From: Ostreococcus lucimarinus
Lineage: Eukaryota
Length of the DNA stretch: 64,000 nt
Direction: 5' to 3' (one strand)
Assembly (NCBI GenBank): GCA_000092065.1
Contig: CP000582.1
Part shown: positions 50,558 through 64,000 of the stretch, piece after piece
Layout: the number at the start of each line of letters is the position of its first letter
How positions within the stretch are numbered: the stretch's first letter is position 1
Notes under the pieces: model-generated
The model's database searches: none
What the model was told of the DNA's origin: nothing
The model's input: only the letters and a program-made list of their open reading frames with translations
Made by a program: the position numbers and the translations under genes

Positions 50558-51053
50558 CGTTCGCGTCGCGTAGTGCGAGCGCTGGATACACTGGCGTCAT
50601 TCGCGCGTCGTCGATTCGTCAGTCCTCGTCGCGTCGTCGTCCGCTCGTTCGCCGAATCGCGTCGCGCGCGATCGCATCGCATTTAATCCAATCCGAATTC
50701 GAATCGAATCGCGCGCTCGAATCGCGTCGCGCGCGACGTCGCGCGTCGTCGCGCGTCGATCGTTCGCGCCCTCGCGTCGCGTCGCGCGCGCACCGTTCGA
50801 CGCGCGATCGCGTCGCGCGCGATCGCGCCGAGTCGTCGTCGCATCGCGTCGCGCTTTGGCAACGGTCGAGTCGCGGACCGACGGACGGCCGGGGACGGTC
50901 CGTGTGTCGCCTTCGCGGCGCCGCGTTCGGCGACGGCGCGTCGGCAAAACGCGCGGGACTCGACGACGACACAGGGCGTCGACTCGAGTCGCACCGCAAA
51001 GGCGCGCAGTGGTGCGACTCGTAACGCGACGGCGCCGCGAAGGCGCGAGAGAG

Positions 51054-53447
51054 ATGCGCGACGCCCGCGCGGAGGCACCGCGTCGTGGGAAAGATTTGAA
51101 ATTCGAATCGGCGTCGCGTCGAACGAGGGCGAGGGCGTCGCGCGAAGCGTTCTCGCCCGGGTCGAGCGCGTGCGCGTCCGAGCGTGGAAGTTTCGCGACG
51201 ACGACGACGGTCGAGAGCGCGTCGCGACGCGATGCGCGGGAATACACGCCGCCGCCGTTGACGGCGGAGGAGATCGCAGAGATGAACGAAGCCGTATCTG
51301 AGCTCGTCGTCGAGAGCTCCATCCCGTTCGCGTGGACGAGCTCGCCGGCGTTCTTCCGGTTCATGCACGCGCTTAGGCCTGAACTCTTCAGCGCCGCGGA
51401 GCGCGCGCGCATCGAAAGCGGCGCGGAGCTCGTCGACCAGCCCGAGAACCTTCGATGTCGCCGTTGGCACTCGACAGCCGGCGTCGACGGGTTGTACGAG
51501 AAACGTATGAAACGCGCCCTCCGTGCGCTTGAAGACTGGGAGGAGTTGGCGTTATCGGCGGATGGTTGGCAATCTGAAGATGGCGTGAAAGTACTAAACT
51601 TGTCCATAACGGTGAGAGAAACTGGTCGCGAGTACTACTGGAAGAGCGTCGAAATAGAAACGGAGTCAGAAAGCGCAGTGTTCATGCAACAGACCGCCGC
51701 GCAAGTGATGAAAGACCTCCCACTGAAGAAGTTCAAATGCATCATTGGGGACAACACCTCGCATGTCGTCAGCTTCTTGGAAGCTATCGCGGCTACTCCA
51801 GAGACATCTCACATTACTCCGATTGGTTGCTATGCACATCGTTTCAACTTGCTGGCTGGAGACGTCCACGAGACGTTCAAATTCTTATTTCTGGATCTAG
51901 AGCGGGCCATCAACAAGCTCCGTGTTCAGTCTCGAATGCGCGCGCTTTTCGACGCGGCGCGTAAAGAGAAGAATAGTAAGAAACAACTTGAGACGTACTG
52001 CCCAACGCGATGGGCGTCCGCGCATGCATGTCTACACAGCTACGTACTGAATATCGACGTGTTCAGATTTTTGGACGAAGACGACGGTGTGATCGCAAAA
52101 AATTTCCGTAAAATGTGTGAAAAAGACTCGGAATCAATCTTTAAAGTATTCTTTGACCGGGATTCGCAGATGGCAGTCCGTAGGTTAGAGCCCTTGTTCC
52201 GAGGTTTGGCGGCGGCAAACAAGTTTATGGAAGCTACTGGCGCTCATCTTGCGGAAGTCTTCCCGCTGTGCTGGGCACTAGAAAAAGACTTGAGACAGTG
52301 GCTCGCGAACGTGAAAACGAGTGCTCAACAGTCATGGATTGAACGTGCGACGCGCCAGTCATGGATTGAACGTGCGACGCGCCAGCCGACACGCGATGGA
52401 CTCACGACGCCTGAGCAATTATCAGACGTACTTCACCGAGTTTACAAAGTGCGATTCGAAGGACTGGAGGCACAGCCAGGTAACCCAAGCACGAAGCGCA
52501 CGCCGTTGCGAGACGAACCCCTCGTACATCTTGCATCATATTTGAGTTACATGATGCATGCGAGAATGCGTATCAAACATCAGTTCGTCGTGCCGGAAGT
52601 ATATGAAGCGAAAAAAGGTATCGGAAAGATTCATTTCCACTTGGAGGAAAAGAAAGCAGACGTGGAAGCAGCCAAAACGGCATTAGAAAAACTGAACGCG
52701 GTCACCTGTCCGAAAGCGGCACGACCCTACCGCGACGACTATCGCGTTCGCTTCATCGAGAATGACGCGTACATCCAAGCTTGCGCCGACAAAACGTTTG
52801 TGGACGTTACACTGGAGCAGCTTGAGTACATCAGGGCACACAACTGGTGGCGCAACTTCTTGGAGCCAGAATGCGTGCAAACCTGGCCTGCATGGAAAGA
52901 TCTAATTCCTTTCGCACGTCGTATAAACGCGATTGTTCCACATAGTGCGTCTGTTGAACGCATGAACTCGTCTCAGAAACTTGTGCACAACAAGAGGCTC
53001 AGCTTGAGCCACGCGAATGTCCAGAAGTTGTCTTTCATTTACTTCAATGCTAGGCATGAGCGCCGGTTATTCGCGAGTCCCTTTCATCGTTTGGTATCAG
53101 AGACATACGACGCAGCAGAAAGTCAAGTAGCCGCGAGTCCTGTGGTAGTTGTGGACAGCGACAGTGATGATGGAGTTGGTGAAGATGAAATCCTCTCGTC
53201 AGATGACGACGACTTAGACGAGTACTTAAAAGAGGTAGACGAGCTCGTCATGTCGCCACACGCAAACGTTTCGAATGGAACGGAAATGACAAGTTTAGGC
53301 AACCTCGATGAAACCGTGCCGGTACAGGATGATGTCTCGCATCCCACTCGGAACAAGGCAAAGGAAACTTTTGCACAGAAGACAGCTCGCAAGGCATTAG
53401 AGCGTCAAGAGAAGAAGAGACGTAGTAAGAGTAGAAGATTGCAATAG
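51054..53447 (+). mobile_element. hAT-family transposase-like gene (hAT dimerization domain at C-terminus)
   Basis: The C-terminal ..WWRNFLEPECVQTWPAWKDLIPFARRINAIVPHSASVERMNSSQKLVHNKRLSL.. is the hAT dimerization signature. The central region is transposase-like. The coding region is ~48% GC, but the 5' ~200 bp are GC-rich. It contains an internal 27-nt in-frame tandem duplication. Confidence 0.65.
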
Positions 53448-56206: not shown

Positions 56207-57142
56207 TCATAGTTTCTCTCCGATCAACTTTTTAAGCAAAACGCGTCTTGCTCCGAGTACCCCGCCGAGTCCGTACCACCACGGATCTTCGCCACAGGCG
56301 ACGTATCCCCGGCGCTCATACATCTCGCGTGCGCGCTGATTATCGACATCAACATGAAGCCAAAGATGGGTGTATCCCCAAAGCCGCGACGCACGTTCGC
56401 ACTTCACCAACATCGAGCTCGCGACGCCTCGTCCGCGCGCGTCGGCTTTGACGGCGACGTTACTGACGTACGGAACACGTGGTTTTGTCGTCGGAAATGG
56501 CTCCGGAAATAAAGCTTCTGGTGAACACACGCGAAGGCTTGCGCTTCCTACCCAACGAGACTCATCATCGGCGACGGCTTCGTCCAGGCGCGAGATCAGC
56601 GTCAAGCACTGCGCCTTTTGTCTCGCGCGAAGCGCTCGCGCGTCGTTTTTCGCGTATTCATCGCCGAGTTTCTTCATTTCACGAATTTCACGACTCGCCT
56701 TCTTCCGTTCTTCAATCTGGTGCGTCGTCATGTGCTTCAACTCCTTCGCGATCGAGCGCGCGTACGCGTCGTCCAACATTTTCTTCACCGCCTCCGCCGC
56801 GTCGTCCAGCGCGTCGCCGCGACGCTCGGACTTTTCCTCGACTCGCGTTTCGTACGCGAACGCGTCCCCGCAGACTTTCGCCGCCGCCGCCGCGTGCGCC
56901 GCCGTCGTCGCCACGCGCACGTGCACGCGCGCGCCGCGCGCCGCGCTACCGCCCGCGTCGTCGGCGGCGCGCGTGGACGTCGGCGAAGCGTCGTCGACGT
57001 CCGGCGCGGACCGCGTCAGCACGCGCGCGCGCGTCACCGAGGACGACGCGCGGGGAGTCGAGCGGCGCGACGGCAACGACGACGACGCGCGCGCGGTGGG
57101 ACAGGACGCACGCGCGCGCAGAGCGATTACAGCGGGCGTCAT
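56207..57142 (-). CDS. GNAT-family N-acetyltransferase with transit-like presequence
   Basis: Acetyl-CoA motif VAVKADARGRGVASSML and ..THLWLHVDVDNQRAREMYERRGYV are present. Confidence 0.7.
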   Translation of the reverse strand: MTPAVIALRARASCPTARASSSLPSRRSTPRASSSVTRARVLTRSAPDVDDASPTSTRAADDAGGSAARGARVHVRVATTAAHAAAAAKVCGDAFAYETRVEEKSERRGDALDDAAEAVKKMLDDAYARSIAKELKHMTTHQIEERKKASREIREMKKLGDEYAKNDARALRARQKAQCLTLISRLDEAVADDESRWVGSASLRVCSPEALFPEPFPTTKPRVPYVSNVAVKADARGRGVASSMLVKCERASRLWGYTHLWLHVDVDNQRAREMYERRGYVACGEDPWWYGLGGVLGARRVLLKKLIGEKL

Positions 57143-57357
57143 AGCTTCTCGCAGGCCGCGGACGAGTGGCGCTGGAATGATCGCATCAACCCCGCTTGAG
57201 GCAAACAAACAAGGACTGAAGGAGACAAGACTTCGCTCAGCTCAGGAGGACGTTGTAAATAAGCTCTGTGCTTGCTCTTTTTCTAATGAACGGTGAATTC
57301 GACGATGATTTCAAAGACGGTTTAACTTGAATATTTCAAGGGTGTCGTACGTGATAC

Positions 57358-59324
57358 TTAAAATCGCTCACCGAATCGAACATATGTGGAGGCCGTGCCG
57401 CTGTTGTTATCAATGCACCACTCCGCTCGCACCGGCCCCAGTTTGATACCAACACCGTGAGTTGATCCTTTACCAGCTCTTCGATAAAACTCCGTTGGGT
57501 TACCTGATAACGCTGAACTTGACGATAAGTCGGAGCATTGCTCCCAAAATAAGAAGCCGTGTGTTTTCAATACAGGAACAGGGAGGCGTATCTCAACTGC
57601 AGTCTCGAGAAGAGAGCGTGCGGCGCCAAGTTCACCCACGGTGTATCCTCTACAAGAGTGCGGGCCACCCAAAGCAAAAGCATCGTAAGCTGCGCAATTC
57701 CCAAGAATGTGACCTGCTCGAGTGTGCAAGACAACAACAGGAGGAGGAAGAGAATTTTTCTTGTTTTCTGGCAGCAACTGAACAAATCGTGTTAATTCGA
57801 CTTTGGAACGGTTGAATATCGGTCGTTTTGGCCAAAACGGAATCGACTGATCGATCTGAAATATATCTCGGGCGCCGACTTGCGTACCGTTTACAAACGT
57901 CGTCGTGTCTCTGGTGACATTACCCTGAAGGAACATGACTCGATCTGTACCTGTGTCAGATAACGTAGTTCGAGGACCATCAAGCGACAGAGAACCATTT
58001 GGGAGTTGTTTTGCGCCAGACGCACATACCGCTCCCGAATCATCACGCGTTGTCACTTCTTCTAATACCATACCAAGTGAGCACTTCGACTGCTTTGTAA
58101 AGTTCTGGCAAACCGTCGCCTTGATACCTGCTCTATCGACCCAAATGCCGGGAACATCTTGAATCAGAGGCCCTCCGGTGAAGACCGGGGACAGTTTCCG
58201 CGAATTGAAAGCCGCAGCTTTGAAAGATGTCTTATCGCTATCAGCGTCGCCTTTGCAGTACGGGTGGTTGTACTCCAGTTTGAACCCCAGATCTTCCTGT
58301 GGTTCAAGGAAGTTGGCTGTTGAAATCGACCCAAAAAGTTGACGTCCCCAGCTATCCAGATTCCTGTGTTCAAAGAACACAGAACCACCTGGACGCGCCG
58401 AAACAAGATCTGGACGACCATTTTCACCTGGTGCGATACTCCATTCAAGTTCAGTCTCCGCTGTCTTCGTTGGTCTTTCGCGAAGTAGTATATCAACTTC
58501 AATTTTGGATGGATCGCGCTCATCAGGTCTCGGTACAACTTGGACGTTGTCAAACAACTGCAGTAGGAAAATATCACGCAATGCCGTCTTCGCGTCTTCG
58601 ACGTTATAGAGTTTTCCAACTTTAAAATTATGTTCCCTCTGAATCACACGCGGATGAGTCACTCCCTTGTTGCCAGGCATTGGCTGGAGATTCTCGTCTA
58701 CAAAGACCGCTTGGACTCGTGTGATTTCTCCCTCGACGACGTGTGCTATGACCTCACCATTTTCCATTCCATCGAAGTGTGATATCGTACCGAATGTGAG
58801 GCCCTTGCTGGTGTAGTAACCCTCTACGATATTTTTTGCTGTCGCCAACACGCGGACTGTACAGTTTTGACTTTTCCGAGCAGCTTTCAAAACCTCTTGT
58901 TCGACATCTTTTGGAAGTGCAGTCGACCCAGCAACTCTAAACGATTGTACCTGCGGCCAGATCTTTTCTCGAAAAACAAACTCAACTGCGTAACCATCCT
59001 GTTTGGGCGTGACATTGGCGTCAACGTTTGCGAAGAGACCTGTGTTAAGAAGCTGTTCAAGATCATCAGAGAGATCTTTCTTCGAAAGTTCCGCGCCCTT
59101 CCGCGCATTGAGACCCTGAAATAATTCGGACTGTATTGAAAGGAGTTAGTAATAAGTTAAATATTCATGCCGCCTTCCTTACCTTCGTCGGAATACCTGG
59201 ACCGGTCGGAAGATTCGTCGCGAGGACTGATTCACAAATGAAATTATCCCTGTTCTTGGGCTTGTTTGCGGCACGGGCAGTATTTGTGGAGGATTCGTCG
59301 TCGCTGTCGTCGTCGTCATCATCT

Positions 59325-59362
<38 letters not shown>

Positions 59363-59812
59363 GTATTCAACATCGTCGTCGTCAACACTGAGCTCGCCTT
59401 CTCCACCGGAAGCTCGAGCGTCAGCGATAGGAATCGCGGTCAGAAGGTAAATGTTGCTACCACTGTGGCCACTCGAATCGTCAGAGTCCCAACCGTCACC
59501 ACTACCGTCGTTGCCATTCCCGATGCCGGAGCCATGATTTCCACTACCTCCACTTCCAACCTCTGGTTCCTCAGTCACAGAGCTGCAAGCTGTTCCTTGT
59601 TTATGTTTGCTCCTGAGGGTTACACGAAACAAAGAGCGCGACGGTGTGTTGCGCGTGGGCGAAAAAGACCAGTTGGTGCCGGAAGCTCGACGGCTAAATT
59701 TTCCACCCGATGATGCTACGCTCGACGACGCTTTATGTTTATTGTATCGGTGACTGGGCGCGGCGGACTTGATGAAAGCGGCGCGGGAAGAGACCTCCGC
59801 AAGGACGGACAT
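57358..59812 (-). CDS. TOC75: Toc75/OEP80-family (Omp85) chloroplast outer-envelope beta-barrel protein, two exons
   Basis: Exon 2 (57358..59130) encodes POTRA-like repeats and a barrel ending ..GVGIKLGPVRAEWCIDNNSGTASTYVRFGERF, with the GYTVGELG motif. Exon 1 (59183..59812) encodes a transit-like, Gly/Ser-rich stretch and a poly-Asp run. A 52-nt phase-0 intron joins ..PTK | SELFQGLNARKGAEL.. Confidence 0.75.
59131..59182 (-). other. Short spliceosomal intron (52 nt) with GTAAGG donor, TACTAAC branch motif and TACAG acceptor
   Basis: The frame is continuous only if this segment is removed; its stop codon otherwise splits the Toc75 ORF. Confidence 0.7.
59296..59390. repeat. (GTC/GAC)n trinucleotide array encoding poly-Asp in Toc75 exon 1
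   Basis: About 18 consecutive gtc units lie on the + strand, giving DDDDDDDDDDDEDDDDDD in the protein. Confidence 0.8.
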
Positions 59813-60250
59813 GTTCTATCGAAGGCCGCTGTTCTCTATCAAGCGCCAGGGTGTACTTGAATTTTTCGAGAGACTCAAAATGAACCTACTATAAGTGGCG
59901 GCAGCGGACTCAGCCGGTTGAGCACGGCGCGCGAATGACGCCGTGCGCCCTCAAGGGCGAAAGGCTTGAAGCGGAAAGGGTGTCATAATCGACATCGCGC
60001 TTTTCGTATTTAATACGCTTTGAAGACCATACTGGTACCCAAAATAAAAAACTATCATGTAGGTCTCCCCCGAAGGAATAATTTATATCAGACAGATAGA
60101 CTTTAGGCGAATGAAGACAAATTATATGCATTCTTAATCAGTTCATGTTTCGAGTTTACACATAAACTGAGGCGCGCAGCGGCACGGAGCCGTCGACAAC
60201 CGTGCGGCCGCCACTCGCGCGAGGATATCCCATGCACCACAGCTTTCTGA
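59813..60250. promoter_or_regulatory. AT-rich bidirectional promoter region (Toc75 / LTV1)
   Basis: It is ~45% GC with TATAAG and TATAAA-like elements, in contrast to the GC-rich divergent spacers elsewhere in the window. Confidence 0.4.
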
Positions 60251-61624
60251 ATGGGAGGTCGCAAGAAGACGTCGTTTGTGGATAAAAAGAGCGCGGTGAC
60301 GTACGCGTTGCTCCCTAACCACGACCGACAAGCGCACAGCCTCGGCCTTCCTAACACATGGGTCCGGACGGACAATAACCAGGGTGCGGACCCCTTCGAT
60401 GACGGCGATCACGTTGGGCGGGAACTCGAACGTGAGCTCCGAGAAAGCCATTCACAACACGTGTCCGCGGGCGATCTTTCAAATGAAAAGGACACAAACA
60501 ATAAATTGACGGCATCAGAGAAGTTGGAACTAGGACTTCCAGACGACGGCTATGATTACACTAAACACTTAAGAGAGTGCGACCCAGATAAAGTACGTAC
60601 CGTAGAAAGTGATTATGCAAATCCACGCAGTGAGATATTTACGAAAAGCATTGACCACGCAAGAACCGAGTATGCGGGCGGGGCAATGAACCAAGGCGAG
60701 TGTGATTTTCACACCTTGCACGAACAAGATAACATTGCCGACGTGTTACAACTTCTTGACGACATAAGCCAAGGCGGATCAATGGAAACCTGCGCTTACG
60801 AGGAGTTACAAGACGATATAATTTTCTTGGCTAGTCAGCGTAAAAGTGAAGAGCGGTGCTCATCGCCTTTCTTGCCCCGAAAAGTAGAGCCGTTGAGTCC
60901 GCAAACCCATCGTGCAGCCACGAAAGTATTAGTAAGAAGTTCAAGTGATGCGGTAGGGAACGAACGTTCAGACGATAGCCATTTTCTGCGTATGATCCAT
61001 AACTACGATGACGACGATCTTGGCGCTACGCCGATGAAAGATGAGAGCAATATTAGATCTGAGAACACAAAATGGCAGACTCTTGAGCAGTTGAACTTCA
61101 ACGATGGAAATTTACAAAAGCATAACGTGGATGCACGCACAGTGAAAAGTTATGCGCTCAATCATAGTGAGGAACAAACTCCACGAAATGCCTACTTAGA
61201 AGAAAGCATTCTGGACAAAAGAACTCAAGCGACCCACATGTATGACTGCGAAAGCATTTTGAGTTTGCACAGTAACTCAAACCATCATCCAAAACTTCTT
61301 GAAGGGAGACTTCTGAGTGAAGAACGTAAATTGAAAACGCCAGATCAACAGAGTGCAAGCATTCCGGGCATTCATACTTGTTTTCCTCTCGGTATGAAAG
61401 CATCATCAGAAGCTGAATTCGATTGGCGCAGCTGCACAGCTCGTAAAGGAGAAAGTGCTCAACAGAAAAAGGAGCGCAAAAATGCCGTCAAAATGGGCCG
61501 TCGACAAGCTCGAAGTACGAAAAAGGGGTTGAAAGAAAGTTTTCAATATTTCAAGCAAGCAGGAGCTGGGGGCGGTAGCTCTGGGGATGTAAGAGCAAAG
61601 ATATCTGTGACAAAAATGCAGTAG
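60251..61624 (+). CDS. LTV1: LTV1 pre-40S ribosome biogenesis factor
   Basis: The N-terminus MGGRKKTSFVDKKSAVTYALL matches LTV1 (MGKKKxFIDKKxAxTF). The basic C-terminus (KKERKNAVKMGRRQARSTKKGLKESFQ) is also LTV1-like. Confidence 0.7.
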   Translation: MGGRKKTSFVDKKSAVTYALLPNHDRQAHSLGLPNTWVRTDNNQGADPFDDGDHVGRELERELRESHSQHVSAGDLSNEKDTNNKLTASEKLELGLPDDGYDYTKHLRECDPDKVRTVESDYANPRSEIFTKSIDHARTEYAGGAMNQGECDFHTLHEQDNIADVLQLLDDISQGGSMETCAYEELQDDIIFLASQRKSEERCSSPFLPRKVEPLSPQTHRAATKVLVRSSSDAVGNERSDDSHFLRMIHNYDDDDLGATPMKDESNIRSENTKWQTLEQLNFNDGNLQKHNVDARTVKSYALNHSEEQTPRNAYLEESILDKRTQATHMYDCESILSLHSNSNHHPKLLEGRLLSEERKLKTPDQQSASIPGIHTCFPLGMKASSEAEFDWRSCTARKGESAQQKKERKNAVKMGRRQARSTKKGLKESFQYFKQAGAGGGSSGDVRAKISVTKMQ

Positions 61625-61675
61625 CATATCCATGTGGTTGCTCAGTTCTGAAGCATTTCTAGCGTAGGCGCTGTA

Positions 61676-64000
61676 TTATTTAGGTGTCATTTTCGACAAC
61701 AAATTGATCGCATCTGATAGCGCAGATTCATCAATTTTTTCTTCTATTCGCAGATCCAAGTACTTGTGTTCGATACCGAAGCATAAAGACAGCTCGTTGG
61801 AAATCCCTTCAAGCTCACTGATGACACAAATAGGAATATCAGACATGAAGTCAGGATTGACACGGAATAATGGATCACGCGATGAGTAGAGGAGCTGAGT
61901 GCAGCATAGAATACTCAATGTCTCGTTCGGGCATTCATTGACACTATTTGGATTGCTCTCTATAAATACTCTGCGCAAACTTGCGTTGACAGATGCGGAT
62001 TCGTTCTTGACTTCAGGATAAGAGGATGCAAGCAATGCCGCATAACTGAGAATTTTTCCTACATCCGAATTATTCTGTTGCGAGACGAGGACTTCATACT
62101 CTTTTGTGAATAAAGTAACCAAGCCAAGTATTTTTGGGTTCGACTGTATTGCATCACTGGCTTGCTCGCGCCAAGATGGGTCTGCGCATACATGTTGCTT
62201 TGTTTCACACAGTCTCACGAATTCTCGAGCGATATACACTCCTAAACCACGCGTGACTAGTATCACTTCATCGCCGTTGTTAATGTCTAAATAAGCGCGT
62301 ATGCGTTGCACATACATTGCGGCAAGCTCTGAGACGCTTGCTGCGGTGGAGGATTGCCAGTCCGTAGTAACGACGAAAGCTGCTGATTTTATCGACGAAG
62401 CTAGGCTGGAATAAAAACTAGTTCCACAGTCTACGTCATTGAGAAAGACGACTATGGGAGTTGTTGTATTACCATTCAATCGCGTAATAAAGCTTCGACT
62501 CACAGGTGAATTTCTATGCTTCCATTGCGGGAGTCGGTATCTCAAAGTAGCTGCAATGCGCTGAGATTGCTCAGATAGGTTACCTGGAGAAGCTGCATCT
62601 TTCCAGGCATTGGCCAGAGTCGGATTTATGAAACAATGCGACAGAATATTAGGGTCTGCGGCACCTTTTCCTCCCGGTTCGATGGGCTCAAACATTTTCG
62701 CATTATTATAAGAATAAGGATTTGTCATGTTCGTGCAAGAGGGCAATTTTAGAAAGTCGCATATTTTGTCGATATGCGACGTAGGATCAGAAACTAGGTC
62801 TTCGTAACAAATTTCCAATTGTCGAGTACTTTCTACATTGCGCAGAAAATCAATGATGTTGGAATTTCCTCGTGCCCATAATTTATCCATATGGCTCCAG
62901 ATCTGCTCGATGGTGGATGCAGATAGAAGCTCCAAACGTTTGCGGCCATTTAATTGTAGCAACTTCTCATTTTCAAGGATATCATGCCTTGATTTGAAAG
63001 TTTCTTTTGACATGGAGTGGATCGTTGCGTACGGATGCCTGTGTATGAATATATAGTACACATCTTCAAATATTGATTCGGCTCGTTCCAAAGTGTCCAA
63101 AGACCACGAATAAGGTGGCGACTTGTCCACTAGAATCCGATCGCCACACCAATTTTGAAGGACTTCATAGACATTCTTTGTTGACATGGAATGCATGTCG
63201 TGCATTATTTTATCAGCTTCATCGGCGAAACAGCCGCGAAGTTCTACAATAGCTTTACGCAAACCTTCAAACGCCCACGAGTGTCCACGAGATATTGACT
63301 CAAACCTTTGGTACATCGTCTCAAAATTTAGCAAGTAAAGTTCTTGAGGTGCAAAAATTGATGGATGAGAGTTTAGTATCATCTGCAAAAGAGTTGAACC
63401 AGACCTCGGCGACGACAACACGAATAGTATCTTTCCCTTCACCTTTGGCTCGTGGAGCCGTAATCGGGGCATCCATGAATTCGAATCTGTTAGTGGCGTA
63501 TACTTTTTAACTTGCGACTCTATCCACAAACAAATGCGCTCACCGGCACTTAATCCTACTGAGAATGTTTCGCGTGTGACCACTTTGATTGCGGCGTCAA
63601 CACTCGCTGCGATCCCTTTGATAGTATTCTCTCTGAATTCGCCAGACCCACAGTGGCTGAATCCAATATCTCGCAGTACATTGTGCAAAGGCTCTGACAT
63701 TGACAGTGGATGTCGGCGTCGACATGGCTCGTTTCTGCTAAGTGAGCTGTGTAACTCGTTCCAAATACATTTTTGTAGTTGGAAGGTCAACCGATTTGCG
63801 TCAACATGAGTATTCTGGTTAGCGGCGTTGCATCTGGTAAGTAGAACGTTTTGTCTGTGGCGAGGTTCTTGAAAAGCCCGGCAATCGCGGCGCACATTTG
63901 TGAGCACGTGTGCCATACTACCGCCATAACCAAAAGAGCTCGTGCCGATTATACCTCCGCTAGTGGGCCCTTTTAGCATAGGAAAGTGTGATCGCTTGTC
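61676..64000 (-). CDS. 3' end of a type I polyketide-synthase-like gene: KS C-terminus, a CurM/OLS-type sulfotransferase (ST) and a thioesterase-like alpha/beta hydrolase; truncated at the window edge
   Basis: The reading frame is open to nt 64000. GIIGTSSFGYGGSMAHVL resembles the KS C-terminal motif (SSFGFGGTNAHV). KILFVLSSPRSGSTLLQMILNSHPSIFAPQELYLLNFETM matches the PAPS-binding start of CurM-type activating sulfotransferases. The C-terminal ~250 aa (PIVVFLNDVDCGT..EVILVTRGLGVYIAREF..) is collinear with offloading thioesterases. Confidence 0.65.
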   Translation of the reverse strand, partial: DKRSHFPMLKGPTSGGIIGTSSFGYGGSMAHVLTNVRRDCRAFQEPRHRQNVLLTRCNAANQNTHVDANRLTFQLQKCIWNELHSSLSRNEPCRRRHPLSMSEPLHNVLRDIGFSHCGSGEFRENTIKGIAASVDAAIKVVTRETFSVGLSAGERICLWIESQVKKYTPLTDSNSWMPRLRLHEPKVKGKILFVLSSPRSGSTLLQMILNSHPSIFAPQELYLLNFETMYQRFESISRGHSWAFEGLRKAIVELRGCFADEADKIMHDMHSMSTKNVYEVLQNWCGDRILVDKSPPYSWSLDTLERAESIFEDVYYIFIHRHPYATIHSMSKETFKSRHDILENEKLLQLNGRKRLELLSASTIEQIWSHMDKLWARGNSNIIDFLRNVESTRQLEICYEDLVSDPTSHIDKICDFLKLPSCTNMTNPYSYNNAKMFEPIEPGGKGAADPNILSHCFINPTLANAWKDAASPGNLSEQSQRIAATLRYRLPQWKHRNSPVSRSFITRLNGNTTTPIVVFLNDVDCGTSFYSSLASSIKSAAFVVTTDWQSSTAASVSELAAMYVQRIRAYLDINNGDEVILVTRGLGVYIAREFVRLCETKQHVCADPSWREQASDAIQSNPKILGLVTLFTKEYEVLVSQQNNSDVGKILSYAALLASSYPEVKNESASVNASLRRVFIESNPNSVNECPNETLSILCCTQLLYSSRDPLFRVNPDFMSDIPICVISELEGISNELSLCFGIEHKYLDLRIEEKIDESALSDAINLLSKMTPK

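What the first reader, a model, noticed from the sequence alone, without database searches (positions are those of the whole stretch)
61676..64000. Truncated PKS offloading module (KS end, CurM/OLS-type sulfotransferase, TE-like hydrolase) in a green-algal nuclear genome
The last gene on the minus strand reads, N to C: a motif resembling the C-terminal end of a beta-ketoacyl synthase (..GTSSFGYGGSMAHVL), about 180 aa of linker, a sulfotransferase domain whose PAPS-binding region (ILFVLSSPRSGSTLLQMILNSHP..FAPQELYLL.F.TM) closely matches the activating sulfotransferases of CurM/OLS terminal-alkene-forming modules, and a C-terminal alpha/beta-hydrolase segment collinear with offloading thioesterases. 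The ST-TE pair is the decarboxylative, sulfate-elimination offloading pathway known from cyanobacterial curacin and olefin synthases, so it predicts a terminal-olefin or sulfated polyketide or fatty-acid-derived product. Two things are unusual. I cannot see an ACP between the KS-like end and the ST. At the TE nucleophile position the sequence reads TRGLG where GxSxG is expected, so there is no Ser; the TE may be non-canonical or inactive. The gene continues beyond the window, so the upstream KS and other domains are unseen. Such ST-TE termination is, to my knowledge, not a described feature of prasinophyte PKS genes.
Basis: partly seen in the sequence, partly recalled or inferred. Interest (0 to 1): 0.85.

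Follow-up and report, generated by a model that had tools for sequence, protein, structure and literature searches.

The report
Sulfotransferase tail of Ostreococcus giant PKS
The end of this window encodes the tail of an already catalogued giant polyketide synthase of the green picoalga Ostreococcus lucimarinus, where a well-preserved curacin-type sulfotransferase sits between worn-out copies of a carrier domain and a thioesterase, so the enzyme probably sulfates its product but cannot release it the textbook way.

Summary
Window 61676-64000 (-) is an open frame that runs off the window. It holds a KS C-terminal end, a 157-aa linker, a sulfotransferase (E 1e-52 to CurM ST, PDB 4GBM) and a thioesterase-like end with TRGLG in place of GxSxG.

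The window is Ostreococcus lucimarinus CCE9901, chromosome-scale record, at the edge of a low-GC stretch. The gene is OluPKS3, a trans-AT PKS described in 2015. That paper reported its terminal non-elongating KS0 and a following "hydrolase-like domain (IPR027417)", but not a sulfotransferase.

A 99.99 % identical Tara contig extends the gene upstream: ...KS-DH-KR-ACP / KS-KR-ACP-KS0-X-ST-TE°.

The tail is not a canonical CurM/OLS offloading module:
- The KS lacks the condensing His and has Ser at the canonical Cys position.
- X is at best a carrier-protein remnant without the Ser.
- The TE-like domain is FAS/PF00975-type, not CurM-type, and lacks the nucleophile Ser in every relative examined.
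- Only the ST keeps its conserved motifs, and together with KS0 it is the best-conserved part.

Most likely the ST sulfonates the β-hydroxyl made by the last KR while the chain sits on the last real ACP. How the chain is released is unknown.

This is a degenerate variant of a known termination system in a known gene. Interest is moderate.

The parts
63902..64000 (-). Last 33 aa of the terminal, non-elongating ketosynthase (KS0) of OluPKS3, with the motif GTSSFGYGGSMAHVL at aa 19-33. The rest of the KS lies beyond the window.
   Evidence: Searches give the sequence and coordinates. On the 99.99 % identical contig L001, PF00109 and PF02801 lie directly upstream. Its motifs are SIDCASASGLV, EASGLGEPLGD and NLGHLDG, matching the 'DCASASG in OluPKS3' of PMC4661987.
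63431..63901 (-). Region X, aa 34-190: post-KS linker followed by a strongly degenerate stretch. It is the positional counterpart of a Ser-less carrier-protein (ACP) remnant in relatives. In the window it reads DIGFSHCG where GxDS is expected.
   Evidence: KAsynt_C_assoc scores E 2e-4, below its cut-off, and there is no Pfam hit for the window's X. X of relatives hits PP-binding: P0007 E 1.7e-6 and P0262 E 8.8e-6. The family X profile hits carrier protein 5mti at E 1.5e-4. A local ACP HMM gives P0262 1.6e-8 with 'LGLDQ' and P0007 2e-4 with 'GLTP', and does not detect the window. The AF2 model is all-helical but of low confidence, pLDDT 54.
62522..63430 (-). CurM/OLS-family PAPS-dependent sulfotransferase domain, aa 191-493. 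The conserved ST motifs are intact.
   Evidence: PF13469 scores E 2e-29. CurM ST 4gbm scores E 1.4e-52 and OLS ST 4gox E 2.8e-48. Retained motifs are SSPRSGSTLL (nt 63386-63415), PQELYLL (63329-63349), VDKSPPY (63110-63130), RHPY and YEDLV. Identity to Mamiellales-type relatives is 49-57 %.
61679..62521 (-). Thioesterase-derived domain (TE°) of the FAS/PF00975 type without a catalytic triad, aa 494-774. TRGLG at nt 62240-62254 occupies the GxSxG elbow.
   Evidence: The family profile hits human FAS TE (3tjm, 1xkt, 2px6) at E 4e-9. hhalign gives 94.9 % against ST-linked bacterial PF00975 TEs and 0.8 % against CurM-type TEs. Foldseek on the AF2 model puts hFAS TE on top at E 3e-4, but only aa 1-110 of the model are confident. 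The nucleophile column is Ser-less in all ST-linked algal relatives examined, and no Asp or His aligns.
61676..61678 (-). Stop codon of the PKS. It lies 51 bp from the stop of the convergent neighbour gene at 60251-61624 (+).
   Evidence: The same convergent arrangement is seen in the related contig L005.

Best explanation
This is the C-terminal tail of OluPKS3, a giant trans-AT type I polyketide synthase. It lies at the edge of the low-GC region of the Ostreococcus lucimarinus chromosome-scale record.

**Shown.** The last stretch of the protein reads KS13 - KR - ACP - KS0 - X - ST - TE°.
- KS0 cannot condense.
- X is at best a remnant of a carrier domain without an attachment serine.
- TE° is a FAS-type thioesterase remnant without a catalytic triad.
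- The ST is a full-length member of the CurM/OLS sulfotransferase family with its conserved motifs intact.

**Inferred mechanism.**
- The last elongating module has a B-type-looking KR and no dehydratase motif. It should leave a (3R)-3-hydroxyacyl chain on the last real ACP.
- The ST uses PAPS to sulfonate that β-hydroxyl, while the highly conserved KS0 serves as the docking or dimerisation platform that presents this ACP.
- TE° and X are structural pseudo-domains.
- Chain release therefore needs a separate hydrolase or another route.
- The product would be a sulfate ester, or an alkene only if some other enzyme hydrolyses the sulfated thioester.
For: **Identity.**
- The window's ORFs are exact O. 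lucimarinus CCE9901 proteins.
- The KS0 motif equals the published OluPKS3 motif.
- The upstream architecture comes from the 99.99 % identical contig L001, and L003 shows the preceding KS end.

**ST.**
- E 1e-52 to CurM ST.
- PRSGS[TS]L, the Glu of ELxLL, DK[ST]P, RHP and YE[DE]L are kept in all 13 algal members aligned.
- The ST is 49-57 % identical between Mamiellales-type relatives, against 31 % for the neighbouring gene.

**Substrate.**
- The last module has KR motifs GAGEIG, SPKLIG, YSSISV, NYVAAN and 'LRD'.
- It has no HxxxGxxxxP and no Pfam DH, whereas the module before it has both.
- The same KR-ACP-KS0-X-ST-TE° order is found in P0282.

**Pseudo-domains.**
- KS0 has His->Ser and Cys->Ser (PMC4661987).
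- The Ser position in X is Gln, Pro, Glu, Asp or His.
- The TE° nucleophile column is G, P, A, D or E, never Ser, in all ST-linked algal relatives examined.

**The tail is real and expressed in a relative.** P0282 is aa 5041-7015 of a 7015-aa complete ORF from an MMETSP transcript.

**Mechanism of the family.** ST sulfonates β-hydroxyacyl-ACP with PAPS ahead of TE hydrolysis (PMC3903477; PKZILLA preprint).
Against: - No biochemical data exist.
- The ST's substrate is inferred only from family membership and the upstream KR.
- The real ACP is about 500 residues and one whole KS0 away from the ST, an arrangement with no characterised precedent that I could find.
- The His two residues after the catalytic Glu in CurM ST (His62, from my memory of the CurM ST structure paper, which I could not read) is Tyr in 12 of 13 algal STs. 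Activity or specificity may therefore differ.
- KS0 is the most conserved domain (62 %), which hints at a role beyond scaffolding that this model does not explain.
- No release activity is identified.
- AF2 models of X and TE° are of low confidence.
Confidence: 0.5

Rival explanations
1. This is a canonical CurM/OLS-type offloading module. The ST sulfonates the β-hydroxyl, and the C-terminal hydrolase, despite its odd elbow, hydrolyses the thioester. Decarboxylative sulfate elimination then gives a terminal alkene.
For: The domain order ST then TE-like matches CurM/OLS, and the ST is a clear family member. Bacterial proteins with ST followed by a PF00975-type TE exist: P0060, P0067, P0092, P0101 and P0115. 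The algal TE° aligns with them.
Against: TE° has Gly at the nucleophile position and no alignable Asp or His. The Ser is absent in every ST-linked algal relative examined, with no conserved substitute. TE° is not of the CurM TE type (hhalign 0.8 %). No holo-ACP lies next to the ST.
Confidence: 0.1
2. The tail is a hand-over or docking device. KS0, using the Cys shifted by two positions, takes the chain and passes it to another PKS subunit or acceptor. This is one of the two options raised by Shelest et al. 2015. The ST would be a tailoring enzyme acting on another hydroxyl or on the free product.
For: KS0 is the best-conserved domain (62 % against P0276). The shifted Cys is kept in the Mamiellales-type sequences: window, P0276, P0282 and P0003. 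O. lucimarinus has two further type I PKSs (PMC4661987). Bacterial CurM-like STs also occur without any TE, for example A-PCP-ST and ACP-ST architectures.
Against: The shifted Cys is absent in P0007 and P0261 (DTASAS), so it is not a family-wide requirement. The tail sits at the very C-terminus with no recognisable docking element. No acceptor is known.
Confidence: 0.15
3. The tail is an evolutionary relic. The whole former KS-ACP-ST-TE module is decaying and contributes nothing, and the chain leaves from the last real ACP by other means.
For: Three of the four domains have lost their catalytic residues. X and the C-terminal half of TE° are barely alignable even between Mamiellales-type relatives. 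The gene lies in a fast-evolving, structurally variable region (bioRxiv 10.1101/2025.04.21.649811).
Against: The frame is open over 1986 codons and essentially identical in four environmental contigs. ST and KS0 are far better conserved than the neighbouring gene (57-62 % against 31 %). All conserved ST motifs are kept in 13 lineages. The four-part tail recurs in a dozen or so sequences, most of them distinct 50 %-identity clusters. It is present in a complete transcript of a relative.
Confidence: 0.08

Closest known systems
OluPKS3 / OtaPKS1 / MicPKS2 'clade 6' terminal KS0 of Mamiellales trans-AT PKSs (Shelest et al. 2015, BMC Genomics, PMC4661987)
   Same: It is the same gene. The organism is the same, the KS0 motif DCASASG is identical, and the HGTGT His is replaced by Ser. 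[quoted passage not shown]
   Different: The paper never uses the word sulfotransferase (0 occurrences). It does not describe the carrier remnant or the Ser-less thioesterase remnant. Here the domain is placed in the CurM/OLS ST family at E 1e-52, and the two remnants are identified.
CurM (curacin A) and OLS (Synechococcus PCC 7002 olefin synthase) KS-AT-KR-ACP-ST-TE offloading modules
   Same: The ST is homologous over its full length and keeps the conserved ST motifs. A KR-derived β-hydroxyl should be available. ST is followed by an α/β-hydrolase-derived domain (mechanism as summarised in PMC3903477).
   Different: A KS0 and a dead carrier remnant lie between the real ACP and the ST. The TE is of another family (FAS/PF00975-type) and has no catalytic triad. 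CurM His62 is Tyr. There is no cis-AT. The algal STs form their own clade (100/100 NJ bootstrap).
PKZILLA-2 terminal module M56 of the haptophyte Prymnesium parvum (bioRxiv 10.1101/2024.01.29.577497)
   Same: It is a eukaryotic algal giant trans-AT-like PKS that ends in ST and TE.
   Different: It is reported there as a conventional curacin-like ST-TE module giving a terminal alkene. No KS0, dead ACP or dead TE is described. I could not obtain its sequence to compare.
Type I thioesterase domains (Pfam PF00975), e.g. human fatty acid synthase TE (PDB 1XKT, 2PX6, 3TJM)
   Same: The N-terminal 100 residues are collinear: RLN, strand, helix, P.FGLQ, helix, strand-elbow-helix. Profile E is 4e-9, with a Foldseek top hit.
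   Different: The GYSYG nucleophile elbow is TRGLG. No Asp or His is alignable. The C-terminal half is diverged and modelled with low confidence.
Non-elongating KS0 modules of bacterial trans-AT PKSs
   Same: The fold is a KS, the condensing His is lost, and the position is near the end of the assembly line (PMC4661987).
   Different: From my general knowledge, typical KS0 domains keep the canonical Cys and are followed by a functional ACP. Here the canonical position is Ser and the following carrier has no attachment Ser.

Membership tests
CurM/OLS-family PKS sulfotransferase domain (Pfam PF13469 subgroup; PDB 4GBM, 4GOX) | Full-length sequence homology to CurM/OLS ST rather than to carbohydrate or cytosolic STs | tested here: met
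   E is 1.4e-52 (4gbm) and 2.8e-48 (4gox) over aa 186-493. The next PDB hits, HS 3-OSTs, score E 1e-3.
CurM/OLS-family PKS sulfotransferase domain (Pfam PF13469 subgroup; PDB 4GBM, 4GOX) | PAPS-binding loops (5'-PSB PRSGST; 3'-PB RHPY...S) and the Glu/Lys of PPELH and DKSP. The residue roles are from my memory of the CurM ST structure paper, which I could not read. | tested here: met
   SSPRSGSTLL, QELYLL, VDKSPPY and RHPYATIHS are conserved in the window and in all 13 algal members aligned.
CurM/OLS-family PKS sulfotransferase domain (Pfam PF13469 subgroup; PDB 4GBM, 4GOX) | His two residues after the catalytic Glu (CurM His62; present in about 70 % of the bacterial homologues aligned) | tested here: not met
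   It is Tyr in the window and in 12 of 13 algal STs, and Asn in P0001.
CurM/OLS-family PKS sulfotransferase domain (Pfam PF13469 subgroup; PDB 4GBM, 4GOX) | PAPS-dependent sulfonation of a β-hydroxyacyl-ACP | not testable with these tools
   This needs an enzyme assay. Only the upstream KR, without a DH motif, supports availability of a β-hydroxyl.
CurM/OLS-type ST-TE decarboxylative offloading module | A holo-ACP immediately upstream of the ST | tested here: not met
   There is no PP-binding hit in the window's X, and His sits at the expected Ser position. The real ACP ('AGLDSM') lies upstream of KS0.
CurM/OLS-type ST-TE decarboxylative offloading module | A CurM-type α/β-hydrolase TE downstream of the ST | tested here: not met
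   hhalign of the algal C-terminal profile gives probability 0.8 % against CurM-type TEs of bacterial ST-TE proteins, and 94.9 % against PF00975-type TEs. CurM TE is absent from the PDB profile hits.
CurM/OLS-type ST-TE decarboxylative offloading module | A catalytic Ser/His/acid triad in the TE | tested here: not met
   The Ser column is Gly585 (TRGLG). No Asp or His aligns. The Ser is absent in all ST-linked algal relatives examined.
Type I thioesterase (Pfam PF00975, FAS-TE-like) | Sequence and fold homology of the α/β-hydrolase core | tested here: met
   The profile gives E 4e-9 to hFAS TE over about 100 residues including the elbow. Foldseek puts hFAS TE on top at E 3e-4. Only the N-terminal half is confidently modelled. 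The window sequence alone gives no Pfam hit.
Type I thioesterase (Pfam PF00975, FAS-TE-like) | The GxSxG nucleophile elbow | tested here: not met
   TRGLG in the window. Relatives read GLDDTG, GGSGFG, AADAFG, GAGPLG, VTRDSG and VTTGFG, against GG[WYH]SxG in canonical TEs.
Acyl carrier protein (Pfam PF00550) | A four-helix carrier fold with the GxDS phosphopantetheine site | tested here: not met
   The window's X is not detected by Pfam or by a local ACP HMM. Relatives' X regions are detected (P0007, P0262), but with Pro or Gln at the Ser position. AF2 of X is of low confidence.
Non-elongating ketosynthase (KS0) of trans-AT PKS | A KS fold in which the HGTGT histidine is lost | tested here: met
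   PF00109 and PF02801 hit on L001. The motif reads EASGLGEPLGD. The same is reported for OluPKS3 in PMC4661987. Only the last 33 aa lie inside the window.
Non-elongating ketosynthase (KS0) of trans-AT PKS | The canonical active-site Cys retained for transacylation | tested here: not met
   DCASAS has Ser at the canonical position and a Cys two residues earlier. P0007 and P0261 have DTASAS with no Cys.

The most novel reading that the evidence does not exclude
KS0-X-ST-TE° may be an ancient, conserved termination cassette of green-algal trans-AT PKSs that works by a logic not yet described. The two well-conserved parts, the Ser-for-Cys KS0 and the His-to-Tyr ST, would cooperate to sulfonate and release the chain without any carrier or serine thioesterase of their own. 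For example, KS0 could hold or accept the sulfated chain while hydrolysis or elimination occurs. The Ser-less TE would be retained as a binding module. Ser-less TE copies next to active ones in other PKS proteins retrieved by the same profile would then be part of the same theme.
Probability: 0.12. Interest if true: 0.75.

Novelty: new variant of a known kind. Interest (0 to 1): 0.45.

Why it matters
The products of the giant PKS genes that mark the low-GC outlier regions of Mamiellales are still unknown, although these are among the most abundant marine picoeukaryotes.

- **A chemical handle.** Recognising the 'hydrolase-like' tail domain as an intact CurM-family sulfotransferase predicts a sulfated intermediate or product. 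That can be searched for by negative-mode MS with sulfate-specific losses, and compared with natural PKS-null O. tauri strains (PMC5498103).
- **A limit on the olefin prediction.** The textbook ST-TE olefin prediction should not be transferred to these genes, because the flanking ACP and TE are pseudo-domains.
- **A case of partial decay.** A termination module has partly decayed while one catalytic domain stays under constraint.

None of this overturns current understanding. The gene, its KS0 and ST-TE chemistry were all known.

Tried and rejected
- **Pfam and NCBIfam on the window protein.** These found only the ST and a sub-threshold KS-linker hit. X and the C-terminus gave nothing on their own, so family profiles were needed.
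- **First homologue search.** It did not return the source protein. All listed hits were shorter than about 1350 aa. The gene was reached instead through the neighbouring ORF.
- **AF2 of the C-terminal domain.** Seven sequences, mean pLDDT 47. Only residues 1-110 are usable, and the Foldseek result is used only as support for the sequence evidence.
- **AF2 of X.** pLDDT 54, not used for any claim.
- **Reading the CurM ST, CurM TE and curacin sulfonation papers.** This failed because they are not held. The residue roles Glu60, His62 and Lys133 rest on my memory.
- **Naming the organisms behind the GC-rich homologues P0002-P0009 and P0261-P0265.** This failed. The neighbouring ORFs have no Pfam hits and no named cluster members. 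I therefore do not claim how far the tail extends beyond Mamiellales-like sequences.
- **P0001 'GLISL'.** I considered that it marks a functional ACP. This was rejected as a family feature because no other member has Ser there and the local ACP HMM does not detect P0001 X.
- **P0002 'GGSGFG'.** I considered that it keeps the TE Ser. In HMM register the Ser falls one column before the nucleophile.
- **Introns or frameshifts inside the tail.** I looked for these and rejected them. The frame is continuous over 1986 codons with collinear domains. The only break upstream is a 100-N scaffold gap in L001.
- **Pfam on the 7015-aa MMETSP protein.** Motif scanning was used instead.
Full report
**What is in the sequence.**
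Window 61676-64000 on the minus strand is one open frame of 774 codons. It enters from beyond the window edge and stops at 61676-61678. From N to C it contains four parts:
- the last 33 residues of a ketosynthase, with ..GTSSFGYGGSMAHVL at aa 19-33;
- a 157-residue stretch (X) with no significant Pfam hit, apart from a sub-threshold match to the KS C-terminal extension at E 2e-4;
- a sulfotransferase (PF13469 E 2e-29, aa 192-420);
- 281 further residues with no Pfam hit.

Against PDB sequences, the ST matches the CurM sulfotransferase (4gbm, E 1.4e-52) and the olefin-synthase sulfotransferase (4gox, E 2.8e-48) over aa 186-493. Carbohydrate sulfotransferases follow only at E 1e-3. The pentapeptide TRGLG is at aa 583-587 (nt 62240-62254).

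**Where it comes from, and what lies beyond the window.**
Six ORFs of the window are exact matches to Ostreococcus lucimarinus CCE9901 proteins (XP_001416136.1, XP_001416131.1 and others) on an 895,087-bp record. GC content falls from about 0.6 to 0.43-0.5 from roughly 57 kb onward. This fits entry into the low-GC outlier region (BOC1), where giant type I PKS genes are a known conserved feature of Mamiellales (bioRxiv 10.1101/2025.04.21.649811). That the record is chromosome 2 is my inference from its size and from this context.

Looking up the neighbouring 457-aa ORF retrieved four environmental contigs.
- Tara contig L001 is 99.99 % identical to window 57020-64000 and extends 7.5 kb further.
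- On it the frame stays open for 1986 codons and reads KR (partial hit), ACP (PP-binding), KS (PF00109 + PF02801), linker, ST.
- After a 100-N scaffold gap comes another KS-DH-KR-ACP module.
- Contig L003 shows the end of the preceding KS (..GVSAFAFQGTNAHV) directly before the KR-containing stretch.
- No AT domain is present.

The gene does not stop upstream, the N-terminal motif is a KS, and the ST is of the CurM/OLS kind.

**It is a published gene.**
Shelest et al. 2015 (PMC4661987) catalogued O. lucimarinus OluPKS3, a 14-KS trans-AT PKS. They placed its terminal KS, with those of OtaPKS1 and MicPKS2, in a small 'clade 6' of KS0 domains. [quoted passage not shown] (e.g., to DCASASG in OluPKS3)'. 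[quoted passage not shown]

The extended protein here reads SIDCASASGLV, EASGLGEPLGD and NLGHLDG, which is exactly that KS0. The paper contains no occurrence of 'sulfotransferase'. To my knowledge IPR027417 is the P-loop NTPase superfamily, which also covers sulfotransferase folds, so their 'hydrolase-like' domain is this ST.

ST-TE termination itself is already described in a eukaryotic alga, for the last module of PKZILLA-2. ST domains are also listed in Emiliania and Tisochrysis PKSs. I found no searchable paper that describes an ST in a Mamiellales PKS.

**The sulfotransferase is intact and forms its own clade.**
I aligned 126 ST domains: the window, 12 algal relatives, CurM, OLS and about 110 bacterial homologues.
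- The algal STs keep the PRSGS[TS]L loop, the Glu of ELxLL, the Lys of DK[ST]P, RHP and YE[DE]L without exception.
- The His two residues after the Glu (CurM His62 by my recollection; about 70 % conserved in the bacterial set) is Tyr in 12 of 13 algal sequences and Asn in one.
- The algal STs are monophyletic in 100 of 100 neighbour-joining bootstraps, with no particular bacterial sister.

**The thioesterase-like end is a FAS-type TE without a catalytic triad.**
- A profile of the C-terminal region of seven family members matches the human fatty-acid-synthase thioesterase (3tjm, 1xkt, 2px6) at E 4e-9. The match covers about 100 residues, including the nucleophile elbow.
- hhalign gives 94.9 % probability (E 4.6e-8) against the PF00975-type TEs that follow the ST in some bacterial homologues. 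It gives only 0.8 % against the CurM-type hydrolases that follow it in others.
- An AF2 model has usable confidence only for residues 1-110 (strand-helix-strand-helix-strand-elbow-helix). Its best Foldseek hits are again hFAS TE, then the NocB, EntF and Pks13 TEs.
- In HMM register the nucleophile Ser of GG[WYH]SxG aligns with Gly585 of TRGLG. The same column is G, P, A, D or E in every ST-linked algal relative examined (GLDDTG, GGSGFG, AADAFG, TMDGCG, GAGPLG, ATDEFG, VTRDSG, VTTGFG ...). The Asp and His positions have no counterpart.

**The 'linker' is at best a dead carrier domain.**
- In relatives, region X is recognisably ACP-derived. P0007 hits PP-binding at E 1.7e-6, P0262 at E 8.8e-6, and the family profile hits carrier protein 5mti at E 1.5e-4.
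- The phosphopantetheine serine is replaced in them: LGLDQ in P0262, GLTP in P0007, and E or D in others.
- In the Mamiellales-type sequences, including the window, X is shorter. It is not detected by Pfam or by an ACP HMM that scores the gene's own upstream ACP at E 5e-30.
- The window has DIGFSHCG where GxDS would be. The AF2 model of X is helical but of low confidence.

For the window itself, the ACP ancestry of X rests on position and on weak family alignment only.

**Conservation pattern.**

| Region | Identity to P0276 | Identity to P0001 |
|---|---|---|
| KS0 | 62 % | not available (P0001 starts at the KS end) |
| X | 28 % | barely alignable |
| ST | 57 % | 49 % |
| TE° N-terminal half | 37 % | 29 % |
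| TE° C-terminal half | 36 % over 55 residues only | no hit |
| Convergent neighbour gene | - | 31 % |

P0276 is the closest complete relative. P0001 comes from a syntenic contig, L005. KS0 and ST are therefore under clear constraint, and X and TE° much less.

The four-part tail recurs in a dozen or so sequences, most of them distinct 50 %-identity clusters: P0002, P0003, P0006, P0007, P0261, P0262, P0265, P0276, P0282 and fragments. P0282 is residues 5041-7015 of a 7015-aa complete ORF from an MMETSP transcript. That ORF has four canonical KS (DTACSS), then DCASAS, ST and the Ser-less TE at the very end. In a cultured relative, therefore, the tail is transcribed in one mRNA with the modules.

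**How it most likely works.**
Shown:
- The last elongating module has KR motifs (GAGEIG, SPKLIG, YSSISV, NYVAAN, and an 'LRD' at the position of the B-type LDD motif).
- It has a normal ACP (AGLDSM).
- It has no HxxxGxxxxP and no Pfam DH. The module before it has both.

Inferred: this ACP carries a (3R)-3-hydroxyacyl chain, the substrate type of CurM and OLS STs (family mechanism as summarised in PMC3903477). The ST sulfonates it with PAPS, and KS0 acts as the dimeric platform that docks the ACP. X and TE° cannot carry or hydrolyse the chain, so release must use something else. The product would be a sulfate ester, or an alkene only if another hydrolase acts.

I hold the domain identities with high confidence and this mechanism with about 0.5.

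Three rivals remain:
- a canonical olefin-forming ST-TE (about 0.1; contradicted by the missing triad, the wrong TE family and the missing ACP);
- a hand-over device using the shifted Cys of KS0, with the ST as a tailoring enzyme (about 0.15; that Cys is absent in the DTASAS members);
- a functionless relic (about 0.08; contradicted by the conservation of ST and KS0 and by the open frame).

**Unexplained.**
- I cannot say why KS0 is the best-conserved part.
- I cannot say how the chain leaves the enzyme.

**Verdict.**
The finding is a degenerate variant (KS0 - dead carrier - ST - dead FAS-type TE) of the known ST-TE termination logic. It sits in a gene whose existence and terminal KS0 were already published.

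The useful new points are three:
- the 'hydrolase-like' domain is named as an intact CurM-family sulfotransferase;
- the flanking ACP and TE are shown to be pseudo-domains across the family;
- a sulfated rather than olefinic product follows as the prediction.

Interest is moderate, at 0.45.

Noticed in passing
window 57000-64000: GC content drops from about 0.6 to 0.43-0.5. This fits the boundary of the low-GC outlier region (BOC1) of the O. lucimarinus record, where giant PKS genes are known to reside.
   Followed up: partly
window 50856-53447 (+): An 863-aa ORF has a sub-threshold DUF659 match (E 8e-7, 29 bits against a cut-off of 34.7). To my knowledge this domain is common in hAT-type transposase-derived proteins. 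The ORF sits in a local GC dip just before the low-GC region.
   Followed up: no
window 60251-61624 (+): The convergent neighbour of the PKS has its stop codon 51 bp away. It is XP_001416136.1 'predicted protein', which JGI labels 'protein LTV1', and it has no Pfam hit. The same convergent pairing occurs in the related contig L005, where the orthologue is only 31 % identical.
   Followed up: partly
proteins P0267, P0268, P0269, P0270, P0273, P0275, P0284, P0287, P0289, P0299: The C-terminal profile also retrieves PKS-like proteins with two thioesterase-like domains in tandem. The first has G[VAM]GFG and no Ser. The second has a normal GxSxG (P0267 Pfam). Ser-less TE copies may be a wider feature of such PKS tails. 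Their source organisms are unknown.
   Followed up: partly
P0412 (MMETSP transcript; aa 5041-7015 = P0282): This is a 7015-aa 'complete' transcript ORF of a cultured marine protist. It carries four canonical KS, then DCASAS KS0, ST and a Ser-less TE at the C-terminus. It is a full-length relative of the window's gene that could serve as a model. The species is not given.
   Followed up: partly
L001 10554-10653, and the ends of L002, L003, L004: L001 has a 100-N scaffold gap. Three independent contigs all end within about 30 codons of the same point, at the end of the penultimate KS. Short-read assemblies evidently break at the near-identical repeated PKS modules described for OluPKS3.
   Followed up: partly
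window 59165-59812 (-): A 215-aa ORF between the Toc75/Omp85-like gene (57358-58890) and the LTV1-like gene is called as a gene on contig L002. It has no Pfam hit.
   Followed up: no
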